A stretch of DNA of 64,000 nucleotides. Source: Escherichia phage ERS-1. The position numbers and the translations under genes are program-made. The stretch is from the sequence record PP337211, one strand, 5' to 3'. Positions within the stretch are counted from its first letter, which is position 1. Every line of letters starts with the position of its first letter. Below, piece after piece: positions 26,788 through 57,776 of this stretch. The notes below the pieces were generated by a model. That model had not been told where the DNA came from and did no database searches. It saw only the letters and a list, made by a program, of their open reading frames with translations.

Positions 26788-26796
26788 AATACACCT

Positions 26797-33965: not shown

Positions 33966-33967
33966 AA

Positions 33968-35617: not shown

Positions 35618-35619
35618 AA

Positions 35620-36419: not shown

Positions 36420-36446
36420 TGGTGTTTAATCCTATGCATGATTTCT

Positions 36447-36674: not shown

Positions 36675-36676
36675 GC

Positions 36677-36780
36677 CTTTTTTTTTTTTTTTAGGTGCTG
36701 TCGATTCTGTTTGTAGTCGTCTGTTTAACCTTAGCAATACTAACTGAACCAAGTACAAAACAGTCAATTGCTAAGGTTAA
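36677..36780 (+). repeat. Boundary repeat element E, copy A: T16 run, AGGTGCTGT, 23-nt segment, 14-bp inverted repeat with 28-nt loop; lacks the 3' CAGCACC arm
   Basis: Direct comparison with copies at 36,927-36,971, 57,689-57,776 and 57,996-58,128. Confidence 0.7.
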
Positions 36781-36819
36781 GTCAATTGCGTAGTGAAGTA
36801 AGAAAGTTGAAAAAATCAG

Positions 36820-36848
36820 TTTACATTGACGATGATTTTGATTACAAT
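36820..36848 (+). promoter_or_regulatory. Sigma70-type promoter candidate (TTTACA, 17 bp, TACAAT) pointing into high-GC block 1
   Basis: Read directly: -35 at 36820-36825, -10 at 36843-36848, 17-nt spacer; AT-rich context between repeat copies A and B. Confidence 0.4.
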
Positions 36849-36926
36849 ACTTCTCAACCAGTTTAAGTTTAAATTAATCTTTTGAGGTTTGTCGGAACAA
36901 TTTATATTAAACTGGTTCTTTTTAAA

Positions 36927-36971
36927 CAGGTGCTGTCGATTCCGTTTGTAGTCGTCTGTTTAACCTTAGCA
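36927..36971 (+). repeat. Repeat element E, copy B (5' half only): CAGGTGCTGT + CGATTCCGTTTGTAGTCGTCTG + TTTAACCTTAGCA; left terminus of high-GC block 1
   Basis: Differs by 1 nt from copy A over 32 nt; near-identical inverted copy at 57,689-57,720. Confidence 0.7.
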
Positions 36972-39900
36972 TATGTCTAATGTCGAAGCCACACACCACC
37001 GCCAGAGTTAAAGGATCGACTCCCATGGAACACCAGCACCTTCGGCATCAAGCTGAGCAAGATCTTCCCGTGGCTGGTTCAGGAAGGAGCTGCCGGGATC
37101 AATCGACTTCCCGTGGCGGACCTCCTCAACGCGCCCGGAAGGTGAACAGGCCTGCGCATGACCTTCGCCCAGCTCCGTCCAGGATGACCTGGCGGTGAAC
37201 GGTCGCCTTGGCGGGACGTTCAACCTGCTTCGCCGCCGGAAGGATGACGAAAGCGACGGGACCGCGGGCGCCGCCGCACGGGCGACTGTCCGTGAATGCC
37301 CGAACCTCCCTGGCCGGCTCGGCATGAGTTCGCCCTTCACGTGGTGGGGCCTTCCACCTCCCGGAGGAAGGCCGGGCGTCTGGGCGTCCGGACGATGTCA
37401 CCTGCCTGGAGCTGCGGCGGCGGCTCGTCACGCCTGCTCGGCGAAGGACCTGATTGGTGGGGCCTGGCTGTCTGGGTTGAAGCCCGGGACAGGTACTGTA
37501 CGAACACCGAGCATCCGAGGACCCTCCGGTGATGGTGGACATGGCGGGGATCAAGCGCAAGGACGCCAAAGGAAACTACCTGGGCCGTCCTACGGGATGG
37601 GCGGGGCGAAGATGTGCCTGGGCTCGGGCTCCCGACGATGATGGCCGTGCGCGGCCCCCGCTTCCGCTGTTCGACGCGGCACCTGCCCGGAGGGTCGGCG
37701 CCTGGTCGCGGAAGGGGCGCGGAGGTTCGAGGCCGCGGGGCCGGAGGGTCAGGCCCTCCTGGACACCCTCCACCCGGGTGCCCGTTCGCATCGGAGAAGC
37801 TGGCGAAGGCTTGCGAAGCCCGGGCGAAGGCCGTGGGCGGCGTCACATGACCTGAGCGGTCGCCGCTGCCGCTTCCCGAAGGAGGGGACGGGAACTACGA
37901 CTGGGACCCGGCGACCAACCGGCTGATCGGGCTCCTCCCGCGGACCGGGTCAAGATGGCGATGGTGGCCTGCGCGGAAGCCGGACTGGGGCGTCCCGGGG
38001 CCGGCGATGAGATCGCCTTCGGCTAGGCGAGGCGGAGGAGGCCGCGGAAGCTGCCTGGTTGCGGACGTGTACGCCGCCCCAACTCCCGTCAAGGTGGACG
38101 TGGAGATTGGGCAGGCTGGGGTCATCGCTTGGGCTGGACGGGAGCCGCCTTTGCGGTTCCGCTACGGGTGACGTGGGTGTCGGCTCACTCGTTTGCGGAT
38201 CGCTGCGGGTGTACCCGCTCGACCCCGCAGGAAGTCCGGGCGAACCCCTGGAGAACGATATGCGCCGTGGCAACGACAGCGTCCGTGGACCTCGAAGTGT
38301 TGGCGAGCGTGAGAAAGGGGGCCCTGGTCGACGGCGGCGGTGAGGAGGAAGTCTGGATGCCGGGTTGGTGTCCGCGCGGTCGAGAAGAAGGGCCTGCGGC
38401 CACCTGGACCGTCACCGAATGGATCGCCGGGTCAGAAGGGGCTGATATGAATGATCGCTGTGCGCTGGGAAGTTCTGGGCGGCGATGATCTGGGAGGCGG
38501 TCCTGGTCTGGCTCCTGGTAGGCGGTTGCCGGTGGACGCCTTCGAGTCCTTGACCTGGCCTCCTGCTGGGCGGCACTTCCTCGGAACGTTGCCCGGTTTC
38601 CGCTGAAGGAGGAGGTGAAATGAGCGAACGTCAAGACCGCCTGGGACCGCCGCGATGTTGGGCTGGCCGGTCGTCGCGGGCTGGAAGGGGTGATCAAGGT
38701 CGGAGCCGTCCTGGTCGGCCGGGCGGTGGCGCGGCTTCGACCGGGTTCAACGGCTTCCCGCCCGGTGCGATGACTCGCCGGAGCTGTACGCTGACCGCGG
38801 TGTACCTGCCGTCGGTGGCGGAGGCGTTGGCTCTTTAGGCTCGCCTGCGACGGCTTCGCTCTACATTCTTTCCCTGCTGTCCGAACTGTATGGAGGCCGC
38901 GGGGAAGGCGGGCGTGAAGCGGGTCGCCTTCCCGGTCGACTACGGGCTGCGATCCGGGGTGGGTTGCTGAGTGGAATTCGACGGTTGATGAGGCTTTGGA
39001 AGTCGCCCGCCGTTAGGGGTTGAAGCGAGGTGGGTAGATGTCTGAAGCCGGGCGCGGGACTCCCTCCGCCCCGTCATCCGGTCGCTGGACCCGGTGCGCG
39101 TGGAGAACCCCTTTCGCGCCCGGGACCCCGGATGTGAACTATGCCGGGCTGGATTGAATTGAAGTTCGCTGAACGCTGGCCGCCCTGGGCGGACCGCTTC
39201 CGAGTGGACCGACTCCACCTGCCCAGCACCTGGCTCACCCGTCGCCGGGTGCCGGGGCCGGGCCTTCCTCCTGCTGAAGGTCGGGAGACGGAGTGGTTGC
39301 TGATTCGATGGAGCGGTGGCCGCTGCGACGCCGGGCCGGGTTCCGCGAGAACGCCTGTATGAGGTCTGCGCTGCCGTTGGATGCCTTCCAGAAATGAGGA
39401 GATTTGTAAATGTCGCCGCGGTGAGGCGGGCGGAAGGTGAAAGCCCACCGCTACACCGCCGCTGGCAGGGTTGAACCAAATTGAGGCCGCGAAGGAGTAC
39501 GGGGTCCTTGCACCGCTACCGTGATGGGAAGCGGACCGCCGCCTGGACGATGAACCGTGCCTGTCCCGGCGAGGTCCGAGCCCGAGGTCTGCTTGCTGTT
39601 CCGCCGCCGCTCGGGCAAGACCTGCGCGAAATCGCCGCCGCTCTGGGCTGACTCGCCTCGGGTTGTCCAGATGGCAGGACGGAAAGCGCCGGTTGAGCGC
39701 CTTCGTGAATATTGGGGCTTTTGAGGGGGATCGGAAATGGCGGAACTGCCGAAGTGGAGACGAGGATGGTTGACTTCCTGAAGAAGCGGTGCCGGAGGGG
39801 CCGTGGGTCCTGACGGCCATCGTCCGGACGGGAAAACGGAGACGGTACCGTCTTGTTGCCCACTGCTTAAGGCCGCGGAGTGGATCGAGGGCATCAGGGC

Positions 39901-42900
39901 AAGCGGGCCCCGGATACTTCCTCGCCAACCCGGCTCCGCCGGGCGATGGACGTGAAAGCCTCGAAGGAGGGATGGCCCGCCTCGCCTGGCTTCGCGTCCA
40001 CCCCGCGAGCCGGGAGGACTTCGAGGAGGAGCGGGCGCGGGCGCTCAGCTGCTCCGGTCTGACCGCCGGAGCCGGCGGTCATCGTTGACTCGGGCGGGGG
40101 CTATCCGGGCTTTTGGCGTCGAACCCGTCCGAGGCCTGGAGATTGCTGGATCGGCGGCGAAGGCTGGAGCTGGAAGCGTAGGTGTTCGGCTGGAGAAGGT
40201 GTTTCAGGCGGACCAGTTGCCGGCCACGTGGACCGCATCATGCGCCTCCCGGGCGATCAACATGCCCCGCGAAGAAGGTGGAGAAGGGTCGCCTGCCGAC
40301 CCTCGCCCGTCTGCGTGGAGTGGAATGAGGCCGCTACCCCATCGAGGTTTACCCCCGCGGTTCGAGTCCAGATGGCGGAGCAGGGCCTGGCCGGGGGCCG
40401 TCCGAAGGTGAGATTGGGGCACGTCCGGAGGTTCGGGGACGGAGGAGCTGCGGAGCGGGCCCTTTAGGCGCAAGGCCATCCGTTACCCGCGCTGGCGCTG
40501 ATCGCTACTGGGCAGGGACCCGCCGGACCGACCAAGTACCCCTCCCGGTCGGAAGCCCTGTTCGGGTGCTCGCTGCGACCTCGTGCGGGCGGAGGTCCCT
40601 GATGAACGACTTCGCGGGTGATCGCCGGCTTCGGCGAAATCGCCGCGCAGCCTGTCCGGTAGGGCCCAACTGGGAAGGCTACGCCTGCGGGGGTTCGAAC
40701 GTGCCCTTGAGGAGGCGGTGCACCCTCGGCCTGGGCGGACCAGAAAGCTCGCCGTCGGTGGAGGTTGGCGGAAGTGCCGGGCGGTGAGGTCTGGGACCCG
40801 GCGATGAAGCGGTACGGGTCTGGGGGTCCTTCGAGGACTTCCGGCACGCTACCGCCGGAGGTAGTGGTTGGTCGGAGGAGGGGGTAGCCGTTGAGAAGGC
40901 CGCGGGAGCCTTCTGGATCGATCACCCGTGCTGCCCGGCACGAGACGGTTGGTTCGCCCCCGGCCTGAGGTCGAAGAAGCCTATGCCTCTGGCGCGGGTT
41001 CGCGCGCGATCCTCCCGGCGAGAGCTGCGCCCTCCCGGCACCTTCGTGAGGGCGCCGCCGGGGAACCCGGCTACCACGGTCACCTGGTCGGGTGGATGGC
41101 GCGGATGGTCCCGTTGCACGGCCCGGCGAGTGGCCGTGGTCCTCCGCGGTCGCCGCGGGCCGGGTTCTCTTCCTTCGCCGGTAGTCCTGGCGCGATGTTC
41201 GGGGGCGTCACGACTTCCGGCTTGCGACGAGCTGGTGGGCTCCTCAAACGCTTACCTTTGCATACCGTCCTGCTGTTCGGTGATGAGGCTTTCTTCGCCG
41301 GGAGGAGGCGAAAGCGTGCCGAGACCTCGCGACCGAAGAACGCCTGGTGATCGAGGGTAAGGGCGTGGACGCGGAAGCGGCCCCAACCATGTCCCTGGTC
41401 CTCGCCTCGAACGAAGATTGGGCGGTGCCCGCGGGTCTGGATGAACGCCGGTCTTCGTTGGTGGAGGTGGCGAGGGCCCGGTGACCCCGCCTGATTTCAG
41501 CGGTTGGGTGATGATCTGGAGGGCGCAGGACGCAGCCCGCCCCAGCCTTTCTCCCACCTATGACCTGAGCGCCTTCGAGGTTCGCCAGTTAACCGGGCGC
41601 TGCAGGACCAGAAGATCATGAGCATGTCGCCGGAAACCTGTGGATGTATGAGAAGCTGTGGGAGGGCCGGTCGCTCAAAGACCGACCAGGACTGGCGAAG
41701 CAAGGTGGTGAAGGACAGCTGCTGCCGCATGACGACGACGCAACGACCTCCGCGACCAGGGCCGGAACTTCCGCATGAGCCGCACCCGGCTTCGGCGGCT
41801 GGCTGCCCGGGCCTTCCCGGACGGCTGGCCGCGAAGTGAAATGGCGGAGATCGCTTGGACGGGTCAAGGTTGGCTTCGAGGTGATGATCGAAGAAGCGCG
41901 TGGCCACCACCCGCCGCCGGAGGTGTCCGGCGCCTGGGAGAACTTTGGCGGCCCGTTCGAGTGGCCCGGGGTCCAACCTACCAGGAGCCTCTGAGGACGG
42001 CCCGAAGTCGGAGGCCGTCCCTTCCCAGGATGCCCCCATGAGTGAGCACGCTGTAAGCGACGAAGCGGGAGCTGGAGGGGGCGGGGATCGCCTACACGGT
42101 GGAGCTGGCCGGAGAGGTCAGGAGGCCGCTTCGCCGTGAGGGGGAAAGCCCCGATGGTGACGTGCTCGCGGACTTCCTCCACGTCGCGTGGCCCTCGGTC
42201 GCTCGCCTTCGCGTCTGGTGGAAGACCGCCGCGCGCTGGAATTGACCTGAACCGCTTTACTTCTTCGGACTCTATCACTTCTTTGCCAGTTTGAGAAATG
42301 AACTGGTCCGGCCAGGTCGCGATTCGAGATTGGAAAGGAGCTGACCCTTAAATTAGGAAGAAGCCTTCCGCTGGTGCGGCTTCCCGATCCCGCGCGGTGG
42401 GGGTCCTGGTAAGTTGGGCGAGGACTCGCTGCGCGAAGCCCGTTGCGATTCGAGTTTGAAGTCGGTTCGCCTTCGGGCTATGCGTGGACGCTGACGAGGT
42501 TGTGTGACCGCCCGCTGGGCTGCTCCGCTCGCCTTCGCCGTCCTGCTGCTCTGGGGCCTGGCGGGGGTCTTTGCGGACTATCCTGGACCGCCCGGAGGTT
42601 TGTATCAGCTACCTGACCCGGGAGTGTGTGCGCGTGGTGAACGCGGACGGCTCCCCCGGGATCGTGTGGAGCCCTCCCGGACCGCTATGAGCGAGTGTGG
42701 GTGGAGAAGATTCTGTTTCAACCCTGAGAAAGGAGTTGCGCTACGTCTTTTTGGGTAGGGTGCCGCTTCACTCAGCGGTTGTTGCCTTTGGGGTGGCTGA
42801 GGAGAACCCCGGGGCCGTCGGTTTTCGGGACCGGCCTCAAGACGCCATCGCCTCCTCCTCCGCGAGGGCTGCGCATCCCTTCACGCTGGGAGTGCAAGCT

Positions 42901-45900
42901 GGAGTTCGGCATCAAGCGGATCGCGTCCGGGTCGATGACTTCAACGTGGTCACGATGAACAACCGCCGTCTGGGCTTCACCACGGAGGTCGGCAAGACCT
43001 GGAAGTGTGGCCTTCCGCGAGCTGTATGGCGATGGACGAACGGGGCGAAGTGTTCGAGGCCTGTGAGGTCCCGGAGGTCGCCGCGGACGAAACCGTGATT
43101 GTGGTCCGGGGCGAAAGTTCCTGGATGTCTGGGCTCCCGCTCCACCCTTCCCGTCCTCCTGAACCGCTGGAGTGCGCGAGGCTGTCCGTGCCCTTCCCGG
43201 CCGTCTCGGGTTTCGCGCACGACCGGGGCGCGAGCTACCGGCTGGAGGACCCTTGGGCCGAGGTGTCCGGAAGAAGGTGGACCTGACGGAGGATCGGACC
43301 TTCGGAAGTGGTCCTGGACATGCGCCGCCGTCCGCCGCGGGCTCTGCGAATCCGGCAGGCTCCTCTGATCAAGAAGGCCGCCACCGCGCCCAAGGTGACC
43401 TTCAGCGTGCGCTGGAGTTCGAGGGCGTGGAGCCGTCCTAGCCCTTCCTGGCGACCGTCTCCGAACTCGCCTGCTTCGACTCCTCGCCGCCGCTCCGCGC
43501 CGAAGGCTTCGCGCCTGGACGCATGGATGGCTCCCGCCAAGGAGGCGACCCCGACGCGCCTGAGCGAGCTGGAACGGACCCGGCTGGAGAAGGCCGCGGG
43601 CTTCTGCGAGCGGCTGGGCTTCGCCGTCCAGGAGTACCCGATCCGTTGCTGTGAGTTCCTGGGCGAGGAAGTCCTGGGCCGGCGGCGAGAGGGGGATCAG
43701 GTCCGGGAGCCTGGTCCTTGATGATGGGTACACGCTGGCCGGCACGCTGATCGAGGAGTTTCGCCTTCGCCCCTCCGCTGGACCATGAAACCTGCCGCGG
43801 GTTCCTGATGGACACGTTCGTGTCCTTGGGCGGAACAGACGTTGCAGAACCGCTATGAGCTGGAACACGCCCTTCCGTCTCACCGGAGATGCCTGACCGC
43901 CGCCCGGGCCGTCCGCATCCACGGCCACGCCCAGAAGGCGGAGCTGGAACGCGAGTTTCAGGAGCGACTGAACGAACTCGGCGGACGCCCAGGAGCAGAC
44001 CAGCCGGGCCTGGCCGGTGCTCTGAACGCCGCGGACCTCCCGATGGAGGAGCTGGGCGAGTGGGAGCTGGACGCGAGCTATTGGATGACCCCGGCTGCGC
44101 CTTCCTGAGCAAGCGCGAGGCGGAGGACGCCCGCCCCTCCTTGGGCGACCTCCTCCGTCGTTGCACGGCCTCGGCTAGGCACCTCCGAGGAGCCCGACTA
44201 TGACAAGGAGCCCGATCAGAAACCGCTGCCGATCTTCGCCCTCGCCCTGCTGCCCCTCGCCCGCTCGCGGTCCGGAGGACCGCCCCCGCAGAACGCCGGG
44301 AGACGGTCCGGCGTGCGGGTTGGCGGCTCCTCGCCTCGCCTCGCCCCTCCGTCCCGGGTCCTCCCGGCGGAGGTCGGGGCGAAGCCGGACCCGGCCCGCT
44401 TCGAGCGGCTGGAGTGCTGCCGCGACCCGCCCGACCCCTGGGTGCCGTATCGTTTGCGAACCTCGGAGAAGGGGTCAGAAGATGGAAAACCGGAAGAATT
44501 ACCCGCCTGGGCTGACGAAACCTTCGGCAGTGAAGCACCCGGTGGAAGTCGCCGCCGCGGATGAACGTGGAGGTGGCGGAGCTGGTCGCTGGCCTTGCCA
44601 CCGTCGCCGCCGTCCCGGTCGGAGGATGGACCCGGAGCTGGTCCGGGAACTCCGGAAGGAGTGCGCGGACGTGTTCGGTTGCTCGCCCGTCGCGGAGAAG
44701 CTGGACGTGGACCTTTGGGTCTGTGGTGAACTTAGGGATGGGGGTGCACCGCTGCTGGGCTGGACCCGGAGCCCGTCCGGAAGATGTGCGTGGAAACCTT
44801 CCTGGACCCCGGAAGCGGGCTGAAATGGAGCTGGAAGGTTGACCTTCCCCTGCGACTCGGGGCTCTTTGCTGGGCTTCCACTCCGCCGACGTAGCCCTGA
44901 ACTGGGTCGGTCCGCGGCAGGGGATCGCCGCCGAGCGGAGGACGCCGTGGTGCCGACCTTCCGGCCGGGGCTTCTTCGAGGGCCTGACGGGCGTGAAGGT
45001 TGTACCTGGGCCGCGAGCTGCGCGCCTTCTGGAAAGCCGGACCCTGTGCGAAGGAGAACCTGGGACGTCACGATGGCGGGTGTCCAGGCCCGCCTCGGGC
45101 GCAACCCGGAGGACCCCCGCAAGTACCAGGTGACGGTCCTGGTGTATAGCCAGTTTGCCCCGGCCTGAGCCTCCACGGACATTGACCTGGCCAGTGCGCG
45201 AGCCAGCACCCCTTCCAGCCGATCGGGACGGCGGAGCCGCTTGCGCGGAGTACCTGGGGAGAAGTACGGCGACAACGACCCCGCGGCGGCCTCCCGGGAT
45301 GCGGTCCGCGCCTTCGGGAGGAGTGCCGCTTGATGGCGGAACTCGCCCGCGACGTACCCGGAGAAGCTGAAGCGCCTCGAAGCCGACGTGGCCAAGCTGT
45401 CCGGTCAGAACCCGGCCCGCCGCGCCGCCTGCGCCACCCGTGGATCCCCGCGGAGAAGCTGCTGCCCGCGGGAAGTCGCGTGGCTGAATCAGCGCCTCGG
45501 GAACTCGGAGGGCCTGCTGTGACGGACCTGGACGAAGCGGCCCTGGCCGTTCTGTTCGAGGAGTAACCGGTACGCTTTCCGGTCGCGGACTGGGAGGAGT
45601 TCCTGGTCATTGCCCGGGCGTCCTCGCCTCGGAGCGGGTCCGCTGCCGGTCGGCGCTGGGAGTATTTTGTGGAGGACTACCTGGAAGCCGATCTGCGCCG
45701 CCTTCTCCTCGCCGGCGGTTGTCGTTTGCATCGCCCGCCTGGCGATCCCGGGACCGCGACCGCTCCGCTGAAGGAACTCCCGTGGTGGAGACGCCGGGCG
45801 CTGCTCGCCCTCCTCCCGAAGCCGGATGACGAGGGTCCTGATCCGGGGCGGGAGAGGTTGATGATCGAGAGAATGGCACCCGGGCGGCGGTTTTTCGGCA

Positions 45901-48900
45901 ACCTACGCCCTGAAGAGGGCGAGGAGGCTGCGCGGGTGCTTGGGCCGCGGCCTTCGAGGCGATTGCCCTGATCCCCTCCGCGAAGCCGGAGGAGGTCCTG
46001 GGTTACCTGGACCTGCGCGTATGGGCGTCCCACCGCGGATGAAGTTCTGACGGTACCCGGTCGCCCGCCGGGTGGAGTTCCGCCGGGCTCGCCTCGCGCG
46101 TGCCCTTCGCGGAGATTCAACGCCAAACCGCCCGCGGGGCCTTCGAGGACTGACCATGATACGCTTTGACAAGTCGAAGCCTACGTGGGCGACTTCCTGA
46201 GCGAACTCCGCGGGACGGGGCCTGGGCGGAACATCGTGAAGGACTCGCCCGCCCAGCTCGGCCCTACCCGGAGCGGGCGCTGTGGACCGGGAGGCGGCTC
46301 GCCTTCCTGGGCGAGCCCGGGACTACCGCCTGGAGCTGCGCCGGATCGAAGGCGGGCACTGGGAGGCGATCCGCGAGGAGCGCGACCCGGACCGCTTCAA
46401 CCTGCTGATGAGTCGACCTCGCGTAAGGAGGGCGACGCCATGAAACCAAGACTGAAGCGTAGCGCCCCAAACGGGATGCAGGAGCCGGAAGGCGCAGCGG
46501 GTGCCGCCGGTGAACCTTGACGCGGCGATCGCGGGGCCTCCGCCTTCTCGCCTTCGCCCTGTTCCGTCCGGGCTGTCGTGGAGGCTATCGTGGACCTGCG
46601 CGTAGACGGCCCGGTGTCCGACGGCGACGGCTCCGCGGCGACCTCCTGGGAGGAGCTGGAGCGGTCCTGGGGAGGAGACGGTGGAAGGTATGAGGGCCGG
46701 AACTTGAAGGAGAACCGGGCTGGGAGCTGTGCTGGCATCGTCCCGGAGGTTCCCTTTGTTGGAAGAGGTGACGGGCTACGCCCGCGCCTGCCCTGGAGGC
46801 CAGAATTCCGTTTCGGGATGCGGGGTACCGAAGGAGTGAGAGATGGATCGGAGCGAGTTCTGAGCTGGCTGCGGAGCCTGTTCGGCGGACGCCCGCCGCC
46901 CCGCCGCCGGAGTCGGACTGATCGCCTGGCCCGGATGATGGCCCCGGGCTTCGAACCTTGGCTGCCCCTACCCGGAGAACTTCCCCTTGGAACTTATCGA
47001 ACTGTGGGGGCGTGGTGAAAAATGATTCGACCGGTGACCTTCTCTGGGCGACCGCCTGGGGTTCGGAGTCGCCCGCCTGGTGCACCCGCCCTCCGGCGGA
47101 GGCACTGCCTTGTGGCTAAGGTCGAAAACCACCGCCAGTCCTTCCGGATGTCGCGGAATGGCCGTGGCCAGTCCAGTTTGCCCCTGGGCGCGCCTGGTCG
47201 CCCCGCGTCGCCGCCTGGCCCCGCGGCATCGTCCTGATCCAGGAGCGGACGCGACCCCTGCCCCGGCGGCGAACTGCCGAAGGCAGCTGCCCGACTTCTT
47301 CACCGACCTGAAGCCGGAGAACTTCGGCCTGATCGACGGTGGTGGCGGTGCGGCATACGCCCTCCGCCTCGCCTCCTCGAACCTGGTTGGGGAAGGCGAA
47401 GATGAAGAAGGTGAAGAAGGACGAATGGCGACTGCCTGACAAGATCCATGCCCGATGGGAACGGAGCTGGGGCGGAAGTGTTGAGGCGACGGCACGCCGC
47501 TGCTGAGTTCGGTGATCCGGGCAGGCGCGGCCGACTTCGCGGACGCGATGCGCCTGGAAGTGGAGAAGAAGCGGGCGGAGGGCCGGCGGTTGGACGATCT
47601 TACCCGGTGCCGGCTGGATTCCCTCGCGGTGATGCTGCTGGATCGCCTGGAGAAGGGCGACCCCGTGGACGGTGCCTTCGCCGGCGCCGCAGACCTACCG
47701 CGGCGACGGAGCGGACGGGTGGGCCCTCCGTCCTCGGGGCGACCTTCCGCGAATGGCTGGATCTCCGCCTGGAGGCCCGGGACATCGTTGCCTCAACCTC
47801 CAAGCCGCTTGGAAGGCCGCGGCCCGGATCGCGGAGCTGGAGGGGATCGCCGGACGCCTCGAAGGCGAGCGCAACGAGGCCCGCCGGTCGCTGGAGGAGG
47901 AGCGGGAGGTGTTCGGGCAGGAGCTGGAGGCGGAGCGGACGCCCGCCGCCGGTCGGAGCTGAACCTGGCCCGTGCCGGAGGGGTTCACCGCGTGACGGAA
48001 GGCGAACCGCCGCTGCCGGGAGTGCGGGCGAGGTCGGCGCAGCGGGTCGGAGGTCGGCCGGGCGGTACCGGATCGCCGCGGACCGCGCCTTGACCTGGGC
48101 GAACCCCGCGACCCCTATCAATTCCGCCGATGGCCCGCCGGAAACCCCGCCGCGGGGAGTACGTCTGCCGCGGGGCCTATCCGGTTCCCGCACCGCTTCG
48201 CAGGCGGTCGCTGCTCGGGCTACTTCATCGCCGTGGAGCAGCGGAGTTGGCACTAGGGGACCGGCGACTGCCGCCTACTGTAACTGCCTCAACCGGACGG
48301 AGGCCGTGCCCACTGCGAAGTGGTGGAGGGCGGCGAGTCGGTCCAGGAATGCCCCGTGTGGCAAGAGTTTGTACGATTCAATGAGATCAAACTGAAGAAG
48401 GAGAAGTGAGATGAGTGATGACAACACGATGGACAGGCGTGATGATCGACCTGGAGACGATGGCGACCGGCCCCAGCGCCGGGGTCGTTTGTCGGGGCCA
48501 TCCGTCGTTCAACTGCCGAACCGGATTGGTGAAGCCGGACCTGTTCGAGGTGGACGTGGACCTTCACGCCGACGCTGGGCGGCGAGGTCGATGCTTCCGG
48601 CGGTCGGTCTGGCGGGACCAGGTGGACCCTGCCCAGCGCTGGCCGAAGGCGATGCGCTCCGCGCTGACCGACCTCGCCCTCCTGGTCGGGGTACCCGGAC
48701 CGAAGCGGGTCTGGGCCGGGGCTGTCCTTTGACGTTGCCATCTAGGGTTACTATCGCCGGCGGGCGTCCCGATCCCCTGGCATACTCCGCGCTGATGCTG
48801 ACACCCGAACCGTGTATGACCTGGCGAAGGAGCGGGGCTGGTCGAAGCCGGAGGGGGAACGGGGCCGTTCTGCCGCCTGGAGGACTGCCGCTGCCGTACC

Positions 48901-51900
48901 CTTGCCGTCCATCAGCGCCCTGAACGTCCTCCGGGGCAGCCTGAAGGAGAACCCGGTAATTGGCTGACGAATCGACTTGAAGGATGGAATTCCCTTCCCC
49001 CCTTGCGGACCGCGAAGTGGCCCGGATCGCGGAGGAGGCGGCGACACACCGCCCGGGAGCCGGCGACTGTGACCTGTGTGGCGAATGGAGCGGGAGGCTG
49101 GTGGAGGAGTCTGTGCGCCCTGTCGGACCGCCCGGGCTTTGCCGGTGAATCGAAGAAGTTGTATGAGGGCTCTACTTCTTGCAGGCCCCCCGCCACTCTC
49201 CTTCGTTGCAGGTACCGGCCTGAAAATGGAGAACGGCGATGACCTGGATTTCCGCCTCCAACCCGACACCCGCGCCACTGCCCCGCTTCGTGGCCGGTTT
49301 CACTGTCCTCGCCTCTGGCGGTAGCCCTCCGCGACCCTCGGCTACGCCTTCAGCCGCTAGAGCGTGGTTCCTGGCCTGGTCCGGCGACTCTGCATGGCAT
49401 GCTGGAGGATGTACCGTGAAGGACGTGTACTGGAACCTGGCCCACTACCCCCGTCTGGAAGGCTCGGGTGCCCCCGCCCTCGCCCTCCGAAGTTCCTGGC
49501 GTCATCCCCGACCGTCGCCCGAATTGAAGCCCTGGGTGGAGTTCCGCGCCCCGAAGGCTGCGCCGGTGGTGAAGGCGGGAGCGCTTCTGCCAGGGGCGCC
49601 GGGTGCCCGCCCCGCGCCCGGGCTGGCCAGTCCTGATGGAGCTGGCAAGCCCTGGTCCGCCGCTGCTCCATGGTCCAGCCCCGCGAAAGTCCGGTCGGCG
49701 TAGGAAGGACGGAACCGATCCTCGCCGGCGAGCGCCTGGGCTCGCCGCGGGCCTTCGACCACCACCCGGGTTGAAGGAGCCCGCGTGTATCTGGAAGGAT
49801 GAGCCGCCGCTGGAGGGAAAGGCCCGAGGAAGATGGAAGCGAGTACCAGAAGCGGGAGGGCTCCGGCCCTCCCCCCCGCGGGTCGAAAAAAGTTGTCTGC
49901 TGGGCTGACCTTCTTCGGGTTGGGTCACTTTTTGTTAGGCCGTAGAAATGGAGAACTGAAATCAGCCGACTCCCGCCCAGGTCGCTGCCCGCGAACTGAT
50001 CGCAGGCTGGGGCTCGCCTCGCTGGGCGATGTCCGGGTTGTCAAGCCGCTGACCCTCCCGGCCGGAGTACCTCCGCGGCCCGCTCCTTCGCCGGTGACCG
50101 CGCGATCCGCCGGATCGGTGCCGGTCCTCCGCGGGACGTCCCCCTGGCAGCTGATCGGCTTCGGACCTCGCGGAGGTCGCCGGGCCCTCTGGAAGTCGGC
50201 TGCCGTTGACCGGGAGGGCCTGGCTCTCCCCCTCCCGGAGAAGGAGCCCCTTGTGAACCGGTGGCCGCCTTCCCCACCCCCTCCCCTCGTCCCCACTCCT
50301 GTTCATCGGAGTCGGGGAGCTGGGGCTGCTCTTCACCCTCCGCGAGACGGAGCTGAAGGCCGTCCCGGGTCCTGGCCCACGGACGCGGTGGTGAATGGCG
50401 TGTATCGGGGTCCTCCGAGGTCCGTGCTCCCGTGAAGAACCTGAGCCGGGACCGACGAAGCCTTCGAGAAGGCCCGGAAGCCTCTGCAGCGTATGGGCCG
50501 AGCCGGTGACCTCCCGCGACTCCCTGCGCGAGGAAATGAACGCGATTCACCGCGTGACGCTGCGGAGCTGGAGCGCCGGGAGCGCGAGCGGAAGGAGCGC
50601 GAGGACCGCCTGGGCCGCGGAACGGGCCGCGGAGGAGGAGGAGAAGCGCCTGTACCTTCCTGGGCTGGAAGTTTGCCTTCGGACCTACGCGTGGCGAGTT
50701 CCCAGGCCCCGCGGGCTGGCCTCCGCCGGTCGATCCAGCCTCCGGACTTCGAGGAAGGTGGCCTGATGCGCCTGACCGCCCGTGAGGTCGCCCGCCGGGT
50801 CCCTGTCCTCGCCCGCCGAAGCCGAAGCCCGACCTGTACGTGGGCGAGCCGAGAGTGCATCACCTTCGACGTGACCGTGGTGCGCCGTACCCTTGCGCCC
50901 GTGACGCCTGGAACGGCTACGGTATCGAGACGGTCCAGGCGTTGCGATGATCGACCGCGCGACCGGGGCCTGCCTCGTGTCCAAGTCCGGGGCCTTCTAC
51001 GCGGAGGAAGGCGAGGAGCTGAAGATCAAGGCCACCGTGAAGGAGCACGCGGAGCACCGCGGCCAGGCCCAGACCGTTGTCCAGCGGGTCGCGGTGCTGG
51101 AGGACTACCGGATGCGCCGGGAACCTCTCAGCTCGCGGTTGTTCGGAGGGCGAGCTGTACGCCGCCTGCACCAGGACCCCCTCACCGGGGCTCTTACGCA
51201 GTGGCCTTTGCCGGAGCCCTCGGGGAGGCCCGGCCGTCGCCCTCGTTGACTGGACTCGCTGAAGTGGACGGGTCACCTGCCCGGGCTTACCGCGTGGGTG
51301 ATTAAGCTTCGCGCTTGGCGGACGCCCTCGTGCGATCCTTCGGAGCTGACCGGGCGTTCCGCGCGTCGGGCGATGAGTTCGCCGTTATGGGTGATAGCCG
51401 TGAACGTCTGCCCGGGCTCGCTTCTCCGCGCGAGGGTCCGGGTTTCTGCTTCGGACGGGGATCGGAGGCGGCGGAGGCGGACGGCGACCTGGCGCGTCGA
51501 GGGGCGGAGGGGGAGCGGTCCGGCCTTCGGGGCCGCGCGAGGGCTCCTCGACCGCCTTGGGGTCGATCATCGACCTCCGGGGGGCTTTACTTCTTCGGAG
51601 GCCCCCCGTCACACTTCTTTGTCGGGCGGTCCGGACCCGGAGAACGGCTGCCGGGGCGGCTGGGCATTTACTGTCTCCCCTGTCCAGGCCACGGACCTGC
51701 GCCTCCAAAGTTCTCCCGACCTTCTTTCGGGCGTGACTTCCTCCGGGTCCAAACGGCCCTGGACCGCCTCCTTAGATGGCGGAGGAGTAGGACGGTGCGC
51801 ACTGGTTCATGTACAAGCTGTCCAACGGTGCGACTGACCTGGCCCCGGCGATCACCGACCGGAAGCTGCGACTGACCGTGGACACCAACGGCTACGGGCG

Positions 51901-54601
51901 AGGTCAGCGGAGACGCCGCGGGCCTGATCGCCTGCCTGTTCGTGTCAACGCCCTCGCTGGAATACCCGCAGCGCCAGGACTACGTGGACCTGTCTACAAG
52001 CCGCGCGACTTCGCCTTCGACCGCCGCAGGCTGAGGAAATCACCGCTGCCTTCGACCTGATACCCTCGGCGCAGCCGACCGCCCCAACTTCCCGGCAAGG
52101 AGCAGATGACCGGTAGACCGCCCCCGGACCAAACCTCCTGCAGGAGACTTTCGTTGGTGTCGCCCCTGACGTGACCGCCCGCCGCGTCCGTCCTGGGCGA
52201 CTTCAGGTGCGCCTCGGCGACCGAGTCGATGCCGGCTTCCGTCCTTCGCCCCGGGCGGAAGTCGGACCCGGCGACCCTGAGCTGGAACCCGTTGGCCCGT
52301 TCACGCTGAAATGGCGACCCCGCAGGGCCTGCACATCCCGGCCGAGGTCCGGCTGGAACATCGCCTTGCCCGCCACTTCGACCGCCTGCTTACGATGGTC
52401 GGTGGACCCCCTCTGTAAGGTAGAAAAGGAGCCCGCGATGGCTGGGCGAGCCACCGCCGTTGGGAGAACCCTCCGTCACCTCCGCGACTGCGCGGAGCCG
52501 CGCACCCCCTGGGCGGATCCGGAAGCCCGCGCCCGGGCGTCCTCCTCCAACTCGCCGTGGAGGCGGCTGGAGGAGGTCGGGTGACGATCACCGCCGCGAG
52601 CTGGACGAAGCCCGAGCAACGCGGGAGGTGAGTGATGAGCGGACGCTACAAGGTCCTGGCCGGGTCCCAGTGCCCGGCCACCGCCGCTCGACTACACCGT
52701 GGTGGATGTCCGGAGCCTTTGCCCGCGGGCGCCTCGGGTGCCGTCGATGCGACTGCGAGACGTTTGGCGAGGAGGAAGCCCTGCGGTTGCCCGCGCCCGA
52801 ACGCGGCGATCGGCGAGTTGAAGTGTACCCTCGCCCGGGCCGCTCGCCTGTTCGAGGAGGCCCTGCCGAAGTCGTGCTGGGCGCCAGCGCCCTGGACGCC
52901 GGCGTGATCCGCTGCTTGGTCAGGTCCCGGCGAAGTCCGCGCGGCCCTGAAGGCTTGCGCCCTTGTGCGGAGGGGAAGTGCCCCGTACGGCCCCGAACCG
53001 CCCCTGGGCGAAGGAGGGCGGAGCATCACCCCCGGGCGCTGACGCCCTGATCCTGAGTTCGTGTCGACCTGGGCGGCTAGGGGTCAAGCGGCTGAAGGAC
53101 CGCCGGGCGAAGATCGCCGGCTGTTCGCCCCGGGACGGACGGAAGGCGACCGCCTGGCCCTGTACGTCGCCGGGCGGGCGACCCTCCCGCTTCGACGCGG
53201 CCCGCTGCGCCGGTACGCGCCCGCCGCCCGTTGGACCTCTGCCGCGTGACGACCTAGGTAACGGCTCCGCCCGCGTGGTGCCGAAGTCGTAACGAGACCG
53301 GAGAAGGAGAAGCGGCGAAGCGGGGAATCTACCGCGGCCCGATCCCTGCCCGATTCGGCAGACCTGCGCTGCTGCGCGAGGCGACCCGGCCATGCTCGTG
53401 GCGGTTCGATGACGGAGCCTGACCCGGAGCGGCGACCCGATCCCGGCGGAGAAGCCCGAAGGCCCGCCCGCGGACGCCCTGGGCTACGGCTCGCGCCTTC
53501 CCGGCGGAGGACTTCGAGGAGAACCGGACCTGCCCGACCTGCGAGGCGACCGGCTTTCGGCGGCTCGCGCCGGGTCCTGACCGCTGTACCTTCTGCGACG
53601 GGACGGCAAGGCGGGAACCCGCCGGAGGAGGACGGCGAGGCTGCCGGGGTGCCCCGCCCGACCGCCCGCGCGCGGTCGGTGACCTCCTCCGTGGGCATGA
53701 CCCGCGACGGCTACCGGCTCGCCGGGTGGTTGTCGAGTGCGAGGACGGCGCTGTGGCGAACTCCGCCAGGAACGAAGCCGGGACTGATCCTGGGTCCGGC
53801 TCCCGGTGATCCCGGGAGGTGAACGATGTCCCTGGCTGAGTTCGAGGACCGCGTGGCGGATCCCCTGCCTCATCGTGGTCACCACCGGGAGCCCTGACGT
53901 GCCCGCGAAGTGCTGCGGCCCGCCTGAAGATCGCTACCCGGCGGAAGGCGGATGCGGTGAATGGGAAGTCCGCGACCGCCGCGGACGCCCGCCCCCTGGC
54001 CTGGAGCGGGGTATGACGGAGGCGGAGCGCGAAGCGGTTGACCTGGCCGTGTTCGATCCGTGCGGAGGACCGGCGATGACCTGCGTGCGCGTCCCCGGGG
54101 GTCGCTTGCCGTCGCCCTCTTCCGGCTCCGCCTCGCGGACGGCTCCTGCGCGTCGGAGCCCTGCCACCTGCGGGCTGCCTCTTCCGCGACCGGCGGCTGG
54201 CGTCTTCACACGAGTGGTGGAGGACCCCTGCGATCTGCGCCGCCCTGGACTGGTCCTTCAACGAGGAAAACGGGCCGACCGCCCTCGCCGCGGGATGCCC
54301 CGCCGGGTGGTCCCGCGGTGCCGACTGGTCGAGTCGGAGGCCGAAGGCTGCGGAAAACCGGCGGGCTCCCCCTCCTTCTCCCTTCCACCGGGTGCGCTTG
54401 GGTTACGGGAGTGCGCTTGGGTTCGGCTCCAAAAGTATGAAGGGGTGCGTGGCGGGAAGTTGTAGCCGTCTGGGGTTCCTGCCTTGCGCTTAGGTTACTT
54501 GGGATTCTTACCTGAAACAAATTTGCCCAGGGTTGACCCGGCGGACCGGCCTGAGAATCCTTGTTGAGGCTTCCGGCTGTCCGAGGGCTTCCTGGGGCTA
54601 A

Positions 54602-54648
54602 GGTAAGTAAGTTAAGTAAGTTAAGTATCTATCTATCTATCTATCTAT
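54602..54648. repeat. Simple-sequence repeats: (GTAAGTTAA)-like units followed by (TATC)5
   Basis: Read directly: GTAAGTAAGTTAAGTAAGTTAAG then TATCTATCTATCTATCTATCTA, inside a lower-GC island (~54,470-54,700) within block 1. Confidence 0.8.
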
Positions 54649-55479
54649 AAAGGGCTGTTTTATATGGCCTTTTTGCCCGCTTGACTTTTTACTTTTTCGG
54701 ACGTGGAAGTGAAGCGCGACCCCTCGAACCTAAGCGGAGGACGCCGCGTGCCTGCTTGGGTCTGTTGCCCGTCGCTCCCGCGCCTCCCCCGCGGGCGAGC
54801 GCGACCCGCCCTTGGCGAACGCAGGCTTCGCCAGACTCGCGGCGAGGATGTCCTTGGGCGTGAGGCCGGGACGGATCGCCGCGTGATGCGCGATTGACGG
54901 GCGGTGCTGCCCAAGGGGGAGGTGATGTGCCCATTGAGAAACTGAAGCCGAAGCCGATGGTGCCCTTGCCCTTGGATGGAAGCAGTACCTGGAGTTGTTC
55001 CGCACGTCCCGACCTGGGTGGGTGGAAGTACCGTGCGCGGAGGCGTGGGCGTCTCCGGCTCCGCCGTTCCACTATGCCGTTGAAGAATGACCCGGAGTTT
55101 GCCCTGGCTCTGCAGGACGCCCGCCAAGCGTGGATTGATGAGATCCTGTTGCGCGGCCCTGAAGCGGGCGCGGGACGGCGCGGCAGCGCCCGATCGGTCG
55201 GGGAAGTTCAAGGACGAAATTATTGGATGAGCGGGTGTACTGTGATTCGCTGATGGCCTTGACGCTCCGCGCCCGCCGTGCGGAGTTCGGGAGGACGGGA
55301 GGACGTGGCCTGTATCACTGCCCTCGGCCCGGTGGGCGCCGATCGTCCCGGGCCCCGGCGTCGACCGGACGACTGGGAATTGTTTGGGACCTCGCCCGCG
55401 GGACCGTGGGCCGTCCGACCGGGAGGGCGATGTTCGCCTGGTCCCAAGCGGGCAGGCGGTTGCCATCGCCGCCCGCCCG

Positions 55480-56072
55480 GACTACCCGATCGAGCGGCGC
55501 GAGGCGGAGCCCGGCGAGCTGCGGGCACCACGTGGACCCGGAGACGGGAAGGAGTCGGAGGCGACCTGGTGCGGGTACGGGTTGCAGCTCGCCTTCCTCG
55601 GCGTCCCGATCTTCGAGGTGCTGTATGAGGGGACGCGCGGCCCGGGCAAGACCGACTGCCGATGGACTTCCTCCAGCACGTGGGGAAGGGCTACGGTTGG
55701 AGCGGCGGGGTCCCCGTTCCGTCTGGCAGGGACCCCCGCTGTCGGACGTGATCAGACACAAAACCAACAAGTGGTTCAAGCGTTTCTTCCCGGCTAAGTA
55801 CAGGCAAGGTGGGTTGGCGACCTTCCCGGCACGGCGAGGAGCTGCTGCTGTGTCGGCGGTCGCCGGAGGATTATTGGAACTACCCACGGCCACGTGCCCG
55901 TGGATTGGCTGGGAAGAACTCTTGGGCTGGGCCTGACAGCGCCACCGTTGCGACGTCCTGCCGCCGCTCCCAAGCCGGGGATGCCCCGCCGCGACCCGGG
56001 CGACCGGCCCCACGGCCCCGCCCCTGGCTGGGTCAGGCCCGCTCCCGCCTCCCCCGTTGCGCGGTCGGGTGA
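55480..56072 (+). CDS. Candidate P-loop NTPase, frame-disrupted; function unassigned
   Basis: Walker A-like GTRGPGKT at 55,630-55,653 in context ..GVPIFEVLYEGTRGPGKTD..; protein-like continuation in other frames (..FLQHVGKGYGWSG.., ..LSDVIRHKTNKWFKRFFPAKY..). Boundaries arbitrary. Confidence 0.2.
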
Positions 56073-57688
56073 TCCTGGACGCGATGCGAGACGGCGAGCG
56101 CGAACCGCCCCGGGTCGCCTTCCCGGTTCCTTTCCCATGAGAACCGGGTTGCTCCTCGCTGACCCGGAGGGCCTGGTATTCGAGCCGCGGCCCGGAACCC
56201 CTCCGACTCGCCGCCTGGCTCCACGGCTCCTGCAGGTTGTTTGCGGGAGGATGTTGTACGAGGCTTGCACCGCGGGACGCACCGCGGCGCCCTCCGTCCC
56301 GCTGTCGGTGATCCCGAAGCGGTGGAAGATCGACCTGCGGCTTCCACCGGGCCGGAGCCCTTTGCCGTCCTGTGGTGGGCGGAGTCGAATGGGAGCCGTT
56401 CGAGCGGAATGGCCGCGTGTACGGAAGGTGCGGGGGCGATCTGTACCTGATCCTGTAGCGGGTACGGCTGGAACGGGAACGCGAGCAGGGCGTCCTGCGG
56501 CTCGCCTCGGAGGTCGCCCAGTGGGTGAAGGACCGGGAGGAGGATTGGGCGCTGGAAGGTCGGGTCAGCCCTGGCCCCCGCGACCTTCTCCTCACGTGGA
56601 GGTATGGGGCCTGGATTGCTGTGGAGGCGGAGAGAGGGTGTGCGCCTGGACGCCCGCGGGAGGCTGGGCTCGCGGGTGGGCTGGGAGGGGTTGGCTGTCG
56701 GAGGGCGCTGCCTCCGGCGGCGGGGACCGCGCCAGGTCCCTGGGCTGTTCGGTTTTTTCGACCCGTGCTGGTGTCGTCCAGACGGTCCCGCGCTGCCCCG
56801 CGATGAGGTGTACCTGGGATGACGTGAAGGCGGAGGCGGAGGACCGGTTGGTGACGCGACCGCTACCGCGTGCGGGGTAAGCTGCGTGGTGCGGTGGTGG
56901 CCCGCAGAGGCTCGGCCGGGTCCTCGCCTTCGGGCGAGAATCCGCGAACCTGGAGAACCGACGGCCGGCGAGACGGCAGCCCTGCCGACCTGCGGGGCGT
57001 ATTAACCGCGCTCCCGCGCTGGCCCACGCTCCAGACGCCGCCTGGGCGGGACCGAAGGGCGCGCGAGGCGGGCGAGACGTACCTACCCCGCCCTCGGAGG
57101 AGACGGCAGGGTGGGCTATCGGGAGCGCCTGGCCTCCGCCGCTCCTCCTCGGCGGTTGAACCTGGGCGCCTGGACCTGCCCTGCAGCGGAGCCCTTTGCC
57201 AGCCGATCAAGCCGGCCAGGACGTGCCCGGAGGCGATCCAGGAGATGATCCTGCCTGACGTGGACCTCCTGGGGCTGCCCACGCGTTCGCCCGTCCTGTG
57301 GTTCCGCCAGCCTATCCGGTGAGGCCCTGGCCTCCTCGTCCAGACCGCCTCGCCCGGCCCCGCGGAGGATGGCCTACCCGGACCTGGCGGATGACCGCCG
57401 GGAGGGCCTGCGCCCTGACTGGGTGATGATCCAAGCCGGAGGCGCCCGCTGTTGGCCCGGTCGGAGGTGATCAAATGGGGCCCGAGTCCTCTGCGTGCTG
57501 CTGTCCAAGTTACGAGGCGGAGGCAGGACGGCTTCGCGCAGGCTTGGGAGCGCTGTCCGCGTCCTGGAGCTGGGCCTTGTCCCGGCTCTGGCAGCCGGTG
57601 AGAAGTTGGTGGTCCCGCAAGGAGGAGTGGGTGCTGGCGGATGAGCGGGCCATGGGGCTGAACCACGTCCCTGTGGTTGCCTTTACGC

Positions 57689-57776
57689 CAGACGACTACA
57701 AACGGAATCTACAGCACCTGAGTATGTATTGCTAAGGTTAGAGGGAAACACGATAGAATCCAACAGCACCTAAAAA
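57689..57776 (-). repeat. Repeat element E copies D2 (57,689-57,720, right terminus of block 1, inverted relative to copy B) and D1 (57,721-57,776, 5' half plus inner-stem arm), both in reverse orientation
   Basis: Reverse complement reads TTTTAGGTGCTGT-TGGATTCTATCGTGTTTCCCTC-TAACCTTAGCAAT-ACATACT-CAGGTGCTGT-AGATTCCGTTTGTAGTCGTCTG. Confidence 0.7.

What the first reader, a model, noticed from the sequence alone, without database searches (positions are those of the whole stretch)
36675..57776. A 20.7-kb high-GC block replaces most of nrdD and is bounded by inverted ~31-bp repeats
T4-like synteny is unbroken up to the last ~75 codons of nrdD and stops at ~36,675. About 300 bp later a block of very different composition begins. 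It is flanked on the left by CAGGTGCTGTCGATTCCGTTTGTAGTCGTCTG (36,927-36,958) and on the right by the reverse complement of CAGGTGCTGTAGATTCCGTTTGTAGTCGTCTG (57,689-57,720): one mismatch over 32 bp, inverted orientation, like terminal inverted repeats of a transposable or cargo element. T-even genomes are AT-rich throughout, so a block like this is not expected there. It is either a novel repeat-bounded cargo insertion, or the sequence is chimeric, engineered or generated.
Basis: partly seen in the sequence, partly recalled or inferred. Interest (0 to 1): 0.85.

Follow-up and report, generated by a model that had tools for sequence, protein, structure and literature searches.

The report
Untrimmed nanopore adapters joining unrelated reads
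The "inverted repeats" are Oxford Nanopore barcode-02 adapter sequences, and the window is a chain of separate raw sequencing reads from an E. coli T4-like phage and a Pseudomonas phage, so this is a sequencing artefact and not a mobile element.

Summary
The sequence features are real but the biology is not. The 32-bp "terminal inverted repeat" is AGGTGCTG plus Oxford Nanopore native barcode NB02 (TCGATTCCGTTTGTAGTCGTCTGT). It occurs three times, not twice. The same window also holds NB03 (at its very first bases), NB04 twice, NB05, a degraded NB07, the flanks AAGGTTAA/CAGCACCT/TTAACCTTAGCAAT, and the ligation sequencing adapter. These adapters split the window into five inserts:
- a 36.6-kb T4-like read that simply ends 250 nt into nrdD
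- a 146-bp T4-like fragment from elsewhere, in the opposite orientation
- a 20.6-kb fragment of a Pseudomonas Yuavirus (M6/LKO4-like) genome
- a 235-bp low-quality T4-like scrap (gene 59)
- a second, non-adjacent Yuavirus fragment on the opposite genome strand, running to the window end

All inserts have raw-read error profiles: non-triplet indels, and 18% error in the Yuavirus parts. There is no target-site duplication and no transposase, and T4 sequence never resumes. The best explanation is a multi-molecule (unsplit/chimeric) multiplexed nanopore read or unpolished contig.

One side observation: Yuavirus miscalls concentrate on T in 5'-TG-3' (72% against 9% at TC), which fits the known 5-NedU thymidine hypermodification.

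The parts
1..49 (-). End of a nanopore read (read orientation is the window minus strand): TGTT + ATTGCT-AAGGTTAA (5-18) + NB03 CCTGGTAACTGGGACACAAGACTC (19-42, exact) + CAGCACC
   Evidence: NB03 sequence and flanks as published
50..36678 (-). Insert 1: Tequatrovirus (T4-like) DNA, collinear from gene 41 through uvsX, 42, 43, 45, 46, 47, a-gt, 55 and nrdG into the 3' end of nrdD. Raw-read quality.
   Evidence: 94-97% identity to many T4-like phages. Collinear with SA20RB, ending 251 nt into nrdD. 55 of 56 gap runs are not multiples of 3. Longest ORF is 354 aa.
36679..36780 (-). Junction J1: poly-T run (36679-36692), AGGTGCTG, NB02 (36701-36724, 2 mismatches), TTAACCTTAGCAAT, ligation-adapter sequence ACTAACTGAACCAAGTACA, a short spacer, then ATTGCT-AAGGTTAA. 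This is the third copy of the 'TIR'.
   Evidence: adapter sequences as published
36781..36926 (-). Insert 2: 146-bp T4-like fragment. Its first 97 nt match the gp55.5 region about 15 kb back in the genome, on the opposite strand to insert 1, so it is a separate molecule.
   Evidence: 93% over 99 nt to SA20RB locus 21058-20960, minus
36927..37041 (-).
37042..57687 (-). Insert 3 (the '20.7-kb block'): Pseudomonas Yuavirus genome fragment, collinear with PaTs-2 35,418 to 13,968 (from part of the DNA polymerase gene through primase-helicase, exonuclease and antirestriction genes to terminase and the start of the next structural-protein gene). About 18% error.
57688..57771 (-). Atypical: the NB02 copy abuts phage DNA directly, lacks the AAGGTTAA flank and faces away from insert 3.
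57772..58006 (-). Insert 4: 235-bp AT-rich, low-quality fragment bracketed by NB04 on both sides. 68 nt match T4-like gene 59 (helicase loader). Includes a poly-T run at 57996-58006.
58007..58128 (-). Junction J4: AGGTGCTG + NB04 (4 edits) + TTAACCTTAGCAAT + ACGTAACTGAACGAAGTACA (full ligation adapter, 1 mismatch in 28), a spacer, then ATTGCT-AAGGTTAA + NB05 AAGGTTACACAAACCCTGGACAAG (exact) + CAGCACC
   Evidence: published sequences
58129..64000 (-). Insert 5: second Yuavirus fragment, collinear with PaTs-2 40,008 to 45,729 on the plus strand. It is not contiguous with insert 3 and lies on the opposite genome strand. It covers the thymidine-hypermodification gene cluster and runs off the window.

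Best explanation
The window is a technical concatenation of at least five independently adapted DNA molecules from one multiplexed Oxford Nanopore native-barcoding (ligation) run. These are consecutive strands through one pore that were not split into separate reads, or an unpolished contig made of such a read.

Read on the minus strand, each junction has the standard layout: ...insert-AGGTGCTG-[barcode rev]-TTAACCTTAGCAAT | spacer | ATGTACTTCGTTCAGTTACGTATTGCT-AAGGTTAA-[barcode fwd]-CAGCACCT-insert.... The 'terminal inverted repeats' are two of three copies of barcode NB02 with its constant 8-nt flank. They look inverted because every barcoded molecule carries the same adapter in opposite orientation at its two ends.

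The T4-like sequence 'stops in nrdD' because that is where the DNA fragment ended. The 'high-GC block' is a fragment of an unrelated Pseudomonas Yuavirus genome from another sample on the same flow cell.

Shown: the adapter and barcode identities, the block identities, the error profiles, and the absence of element hallmarks. Inferred: that the chain arose by failure to split reads in software rather than by ligation.
For: (1) The 24-nt core of the repeat equals ONT BC02/NB02 exactly. NB03 and NB05 are present as exact 24-mers, and NB04 (twice, 2 and 4 edits) and NB07 (5 edits) as degraded copies, each with the published flanks AAGGTTAA/CAGCACCT (published tables).
(2) The ONT ligation adapter is present between inserts, with 27 of 28 nt of the start sequence at 58,047-58,074 (published).
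(3) The window itself begins with an adapter plus NB03.
(4) The inserts map to unrelated genomes or to discordant loci and strands: Tequatrovirus, a T4-like fragment on the opposite strand, Yuavirus on the minus strand, a T4-like gene 59 scrap, and Yuavirus on the plus strand at a non-adjacent locus.
(5) The error profile is that of raw reads. In the T4 block 55 of 56 indels are not multiples of 3. The Yuavirus blocks show 11% mismatches and 7% gaps, against 2.5% and 0.26% between two real Yuavirus genomes. The errors are specific to the read strand and identical in two blocks from opposite genome strands.
(6) At the two junctions where adapter sequence is legible (36,725-36,780 and 58,039-58,097), the start adapter is near-complete and the end adapter truncated when read on the minus strand, as is typical of ONT reads.
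(7) There is no target-site duplication.
(8) Cross-sample chimeric reads and barcode switching are documented for this kit.
Against: One junction (57,688-57,733) is not canonical. The NB02 copy abuts phage DNA directly, lacks AAGGTTAA, and faces away from the Yuavirus insert. The T4-like read carries NB02 at one end and NB03 at the other. The short T4 fragment lacks a barcode at one end. These are oddities within an artefact and do not support a biological element. Raw signal or read-level data were not available, so I cannot separate an unsplit read from an assembler artefact. The junction sequences were not found in the two public contig collections scanned, so the source record is unknown.
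Confidence: 0.97

Rival explanations
1. A real TIR-bounded transposable or cargo element of about 20.7 kb inserted into nrdD of a T4-like phage.
For: A 32-bp inverted pair with 1 mismatch brackets a block of foreign composition.
Against: The repeats are synthetic ONT NB02 barcode plus flank, and a third copy and four other barcodes are present. There is no TSD. The block is collinear with an ordinary Yuavirus genome segment and has no transposase; the gene annotated 'integrase' in PaTs-2 is a primase-helicase. nrdD and T4 synteny never resume beyond the block. The block has 18% raw-read error.
Confidence: 0.003
2. An assembler-made chimera: a long-read assembler joined separate untrimmed reads through their shared adapter sequences, rather than one unsplit read.
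For: Adapters sit at every junction, and untrimmed adapters are common in public ONT data.
Against: The shared adapter stretches are only about 50-80 nt, far below usual overlap thresholds (my own knowledge). The two junctions with legible adapter sequence and the TG error signature of both Yuavirus inserts all indicate the same read orientation. Error rates are at single-read level with no sign of consensus. Two 150-235-bp scraps would not normally be assembled.
Confidence: 0.1
3. A physical ligation chimera: barcoded fragments from pooled samples were ligated end to end during adapter ligation and sequenced as one molecule.
For: Cross-sample chimeras and free-barcode carry-over are documented. 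The atypical junction at 57,688-57,733 and the mixed NB02/NB03 ends of the T4 read suggest some mis-ligation.
Against: Two junctions (36,725-36,780 and 58,039-58,097) contain recognisable sequencing-adapter start sequence and spacer between the barcodes, and a third (36,960-37,010) has a garbled stretch of the right length in that position. So each molecule had its own motor adapter, and adapter-loaded ends are not expected to ligate to each other (the last point is my own knowledge).
Confidence: 0.1
4. The sequence is synthetic, simulated or machine-generated.
For: Read simulators such as Badread insert exactly these ligation adapters and make chimeras.
Against: The Yuavirus blocks carry a TG-specific miscall signature on the read strand. 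It matches the known biology of that phage group and is absent from the T4 block. Generic simulators would not reproduce this. Barcodes with correct flanks and mixed samples are typical of a real multiplexed run.
Confidence: 0.02

Closest known systems
Chimeric or unsplit Oxford Nanopore reads with internal ('middle') adapters, as handled by Porechop, Porechop_ABI and Deepbinner
   Same: Internal ligation-adapter and native-barcode sequences; segments from different samples and genomes; different barcodes within one read; raw error profile.
   Different: The chain is unusually long, with at least five molecules and five barcodes in 64 kb. One junction (57,688-57,733) has a non-canonical barcode arrangement.
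Terminal inverted repeats of DNA transposons or cargo-carrying elements
   Same: Only the geometry: two near-identical ~32-bp sequences in inverted orientation around a compositionally foreign block.
   Different: The repeats are synthetic barcode sequence. There is no TSD, no transposase and no resumption of host sequence, and a third copy and other barcodes are present.
Yuavirus (M6-like) Pseudomonas phages with 5-(2-aminoethyl)-deoxyuridine (5-NedU) hypermodified thymidine
   Same: Both high-GC blocks are collinear with PaTs-2/LKO4. Miscalls hit about 29% of T (those in TG), matching the ~30% of T modified in M6 and the TG-containing motif proposed earlier.
   Different: Only about 82% apparent identity to any reference, which I attribute to basecalling errors and not divergence. 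The base itself was not identified chemically.

Membership tests
TIR-bounded transposable/cargo element | Terminal inverted repeats that belong to the element | tested here: not met
   The repeat is AGGTGCTG + ONT barcode NB02 (exact 24-mer at 36,936-36,959). There are three copies, and NB03, NB04, NB05 and NB07 are also present with the same flanks.
TIR-bounded transposable/cargo element | Target-site duplication abutting the two ends | tested here: not met
   No shared direct repeat of 3-12 nt at the flanks.
TIR-bounded transposable/cargo element | Host sequence (the rest of nrdD) resumes beyond the far end | tested here: not met
   Beyond 57,720 there are only adapters, a 68-nt gene 59 match bracketed by NB04, and a second Yuavirus fragment.
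TIR-bounded transposable/cargo element | Encoded transposase or recombinase | tested here: not met
   The block is collinear with PaTs-2 13,968-35,418, which holds replication, terminase and small genes. The 'putative integrase' there is a primase-helicase according to PMC11946847. No independent HMM scan was run because the block is riddled with frameshifts.
ONT native-barcoded ligation-library read (chimeric/unsplit) | Read start: ligation adapter ...GTATTGCT + AAGGTTAA + barcode + CAGCACCT | tested here: met
   Minus strand at 58,074-58,007 and 36,757-36,693, and in garbled form at 37,010-36,927 (published).
ONT native-barcoded ligation-library read (chimeric/unsplit) | Read end: AGGTGCTG + reverse barcode + TTAACCTTAGCAAT (+ truncated adapter) | tested here: met
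   Minus strand at 58,128-58,084 (NB05), 57,771-57,720 (NB04), 37,041-37,005 (NB07-like) and 49-1 (NB03).
ONT native-barcoded ligation-library read (chimeric/unsplit) | Single-pass error profile (frequent 1-2 nt indels, strand-specific bias) | tested here: met
   with the reference-versus-reference control.
ONT native-barcoded ligation-library read (chimeric/unsplit) | Segments map to unrelated or discordant loci | tested here: met
ONT native-barcoded ligation-library read (chimeric/unsplit) | Raw signal or read IDs show several strands under one read | not testable with these tools
   No access to FASTQ/POD5. Junction k-mers are absent from the public contig sets scanned.
Yuavirus with hypermodified thymidine (side observation) | Genome collinear with Yuavirus and carrying the modification gene cluster | tested here: met
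   Insert 5 maps to PaTs-2 40,008-45,729, which holds the P-loop NTP hydrolase/kinase, the rSAM 'photolyase', the PLP 'threonine dehydratase' and the upstream genes up to the one annotated uracil-DNA glycosylase in LKO4.
Yuavirus with hypermodified thymidine (side observation) | About 30% of T replaced by a modified base in a sequence-specific context | tested here: inconclusive
   T in TG (28.8% of T) is miscalled 72-75% of the time in two independent reads, against 9-11% at TC and 3.5% at TG in the T4 block. This is an indirect signature, not chemical identification.

The most novel reading that the evidence does not exclude
The junctions hold no novel biology. The most novel reading left open concerns the side observation. 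The raw-read miscall pattern in the two Yuavirus fragments may be a single-molecule footprint of thymidine hypermodification. It would show that essentially every 5'-TG-3' (and not TC) on each strand carries the modified base. That would sharpen the TG/TC motif previously inferred only from restriction-resistant sites, and would explain the ~30% modified-T fraction as simply the TG fraction of T.
Probability: 0.55. Interest if true: 0.3.

Novelty: not a real feature. Interest (0 to 1): 0.04.

Why it matters
The finding matters only as quality control. The record from which this window was cut contains untrimmed ONT adapters and joins unrelated phages. It should be split at the adapters or discarded before any analysis of gene transfer, mobile elements or host range. 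Otherwise it would look like a spectacular transfer of 20 kb between an E. coli T4-like phage and a Pseudomonas siphovirus. Screening windows for the constant ONT motifs (AAGGTTAA-N24-CAGCACCT, TTAACCTTAGCAAT, GTTACGTATTGCT) would remove this class of false positive cheaply. The TG-specific miscall signature is a minor useful by-product. It suggests that plain basecall errors can map 5-NedU-type modification sites.

Tried and rejected
- I searched for the source record with junction-specific 40- and 50-mers in viral contigs and metagenome contigs. Both gave no match, so the origin remains unknown.
- I looked for a target-site duplication and found none.
- I considered that the ~82% identity of the high-GC blocks reflects a divergent new Yuavirus species. 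I rejected this because the differences are 7% gaps, mostly 1-2 nt. They are also biased to the read strand in the same way for fragments from opposite genome strands. Two real Yuavirus genomes differ by only 2.5% mismatches and 0.26% gaps.
- I considered modified adenine (for example A-to-G miscalls from a 2-aminoadenine genome), because on the window plus strand the losses are at A. I rejected this once adapter asymmetry showed the true read strand is the minus strand, so the affected base is T, in a TG context.
- I tried to explain the non-canonical NB02 junction at 57,688-57,733 as a garbled AAGGTTAA flank. The alignment shows the adjacent bases are phage sequence, so it remains unexplained.
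- I did not run protein-family scans on the block, because frameshifts every ~20-40 nt make ORF-based searches meaningless.
Full report
**Observation**

The composition break is real. GC is 0.29-0.39 over 1-37,000 and 0.58-0.73 from 37,001 to the window end. The 32-mer CAGGTGCTGTCGATTCCGTTTGTAGTCGTCTG is at 36,927-36,958 (+, exact) and 57,689-57,720 (-, 1 mismatch), with none expected by chance.

There is a third copy at 36,692-36,723 (+, 2 mismatches). The high-GC sequence also does not stop at 57.7 kb. After a 0.44-kb AT-rich patch it continues to 64,000.

**What the repeats are**

Reading the junctions shows constant motifs around 24-nt variable cores: AGGTGCTG-N24-TTAACCTTAGCAAT and ATTGCT-AAGGTTAA-N24-CAGCACCT. 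A fuzzy scan identified the cores as Oxford Nanopore barcodes:
- NB03 at 19-42 (exact)
- NB02 at 36,701-36,724, 36,936-36,959 (exact) and 57,688-57,711
- an NB07-like core at 37,011-37,033 (5 edits, followed by an exact CAGCACCT)
- NB04 at 57,741-57,763 and 58,015-58,038
- NB05 at 58,098-58,121 (exact)
- the ligation adapter at 58,047-58,074 (27 of 28 nt)

I first recognised these from memory and then verified them in published tables:
- The layout AAGGTTAA-NBxx-CAGCACCT, with NB02, NB03, NB04 and NB07, is in bioRxiv 10.1101/2021.06.06.447246.
- BC01-BC11, including BC02 = TCGATTCCGTTTGTAGTCGTCTGT and BC05, are in PMC9229804.
- The start adapter AATGTACTTCGTTCAGTTACGTATTGCT and the end adapter GCAATACGTAACTGAACGAAGT are in the Porechop_ABI preprint.

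The "TIR" is therefore the constant flank AGGTGCTG plus barcode NB02. It appears inverted because each barcoded duplex carries the same adapter in opposite orientation at its two ends.

**What lies between the adapters**

- **Insert 1 (50-36,678)** is Tequatrovirus DNA, 94-97% identical to many T4-like phages. It is collinear with SA20RB from gene 41 to nrdG and ends 251 nt into the 3' end of nrdD. That is simply where the fragment ended.
- **Insert 2 (36,781-36,926)** is a short T4-like piece from the gp55.5 region, on the opposite strand.
- **Insert 3 (37,042-57,687)** is collinear with Pseudomonas Yuavirus PaTs-2 35,418 to 13,968 on the minus strand, at 82% identity. The alignment runs right up to the barcodes at both ends.
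- **Insert 4 (57,772-58,006)** is bracketed by NB04 on both sides and has a 68-nt match to T4-like gene 59.
- **Insert 5 (58,129-64,000)** maps to PaTs-2 40,008 to 45,729 on the plus strand. This locus is not adjacent to insert 3 and lies on the other genome strand.

T4 sequence never resumes after the "block". There is no target-site duplication. The block holds no transposase; the PaTs-2 "integrase" is a primase-helicase.

**Raw-read quality**

The longest ORF in 36 kb of T4-like sequence is 354 aa. Of 56 gap runs against SA20RB, 55 are not multiples of three. The Yuavirus inserts differ from PaTs-2 by about 11% mismatches and 7% gaps, mostly 1-2 nt. LKO4 and PaTs-2 differ from each other by only 2.5% mismatches and 0.26% gaps.

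The errors are strand-asymmetric in the same way in inserts 3 and 5, although these come from opposite genome strands. That can only be a property of the sequenced strand and not of evolution.

**Orientation and mechanism**

On the minus strand, the two junctions with legible adapter sequence (58,097-58,039 and 36,780-36,725) read: previous read ...TTAACCTTAGCAAT, a short spacer, then (A)TGTACTTCGTTCAGTTACGTATTGCT-AAGGTTAA-barcode-CAGCACCT-insert. So the start adapters are near-complete and the end adapters truncated. This is the usual asymmetry of ONT reads. The TG miscall signature of inserts 3 and 5 points to the same read strand.

A full sequencing-adapter start sits between inserts at two junctions, and a garbled stretch in the same position at a third. 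The best explanation is therefore several strands passing one pore in succession and reported as one read (inferred), possibly carried into an unpolished contig. Cross-sample chimeras (0.3%) and barcode switching (0.3%) are documented for this kit, and middle adapters are reported in public data.

**Loose ends within the artefact**

- The NB02 copy at 57,688-57,719 abuts phage DNA directly. It lacks the AAGGTTAA flank and faces away from insert 3.
- Insert 1 has NB02 at one end and NB03 at the other.
- Insert 2 lacks a barcode at one end.
- Poly-T runs sit next to AGGTGCTG at 36,679-36,692 and 57,996-58,006.

None of these supports a biological element.

**Side observation**

On the read (minus) strand of the Yuavirus inserts, T followed by G is called correctly only 28% of the time (n = 1,449). 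T not followed by G is correct 84% of the time, and the error at TC is 9-11%. The effect is the same in both inserts, is independent of the +2 base, spills onto neighbouring bases, and is absent from the T4 insert (3.5%).

TG makes up 28.8% of all T. M6-like phages replace about 30% of T with 5-NedU, and this is predicted for LKO4, AN14 and YuA. A TG/TC motif was inferred from restriction-resistant sites, with an unpublished note that the M6 kinase modifies TG. The miscalls also inflate GC from 64.5% in the reference to 68% in the read.

This is an indirect signature from two single reads, and the chemistry is unverified.

**Verdict**

The sequence features are real, but they are a library and read-splitting artefact, not a genomic feature. 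Junction k-mers were not found in the viral or metagenome contig collections, so the source record is unidentified.

Noticed in passing
window 37,042-57,687 and 58,129-64,000 (minus strand): Basecall errors in both Yuavirus fragments concentrate on T of 5'-TG-3'. The error rate is 72-75%, against 9-11% at TC and 3.5% at TG in the T4 block. TG is 28.8% of all T, matching the ~30% 5-NedU content reported for phage M6. This suggests near-complete, TG-specific thymidine hypermodification that can be read from raw nanopore errors.
   Followed up: partly
window 37,042-64,000: The apparent 68% GC of the high-GC blocks is partly an artefact. The matched reference regions are 64.5% GC, and read-strand T-to-C miscalls and T deletions raise it.
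   Followed up: yes
window 57,688-57,733: Non-canonical junction. An NB02 barcode plus CAGCACCT directly abuts Yuavirus DNA with no AAGGTTAA flank and faces away from it, followed by a remnant of adapter and NB04. It may be a mis-ligated barcode or a basecaller skip. Unexplained.
   Followed up: partly
window 19-42 versus 36,701-36,724: The single collinear 36.6-kb T4-like molecule carries different barcodes at its two ends (NB03 and NB02). This fits the barcode switching from free-barcode carry-over described for this kit.
   Followed up: partly
window 36,679-36,692 and 57,996-58,006: Runs of 11-14 T (A on the read strand) lie between the CAGCACCT adapter end and the insert at two read starts. 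They are probably a basecalling artefact at strand entry. Not investigated.
   Followed up: no
window 36,773-36,781: The 146-bp T4-like fragment has AAGGTTAA directly next to phage sequence at one end, with no barcode or CAGCACCT.
   Followed up: no
window ~33,697 and ~36,378: Compared with phage SA20RB, the T4-like phage lacks a ~260-bp segment (hypothetical gene SA20RB_065) and the ~790-bp MobC homing-endonuclease gene between nrdG and nrdD. This is ordinary mosaic variation among T4-like phages.
   Followed up: partly
window 58,129-64,000 (about 60,480-60,925): The second Yuavirus fragment has about 335 nt extra relative to PaTs-2 between the rSAM 'photolyase' and PLP 'threonine dehydratase' genes. 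LKO4 has a small endonuclease gene at this position, so this is probably a homing-endonuclease presence/absence difference.
   Followed up: no
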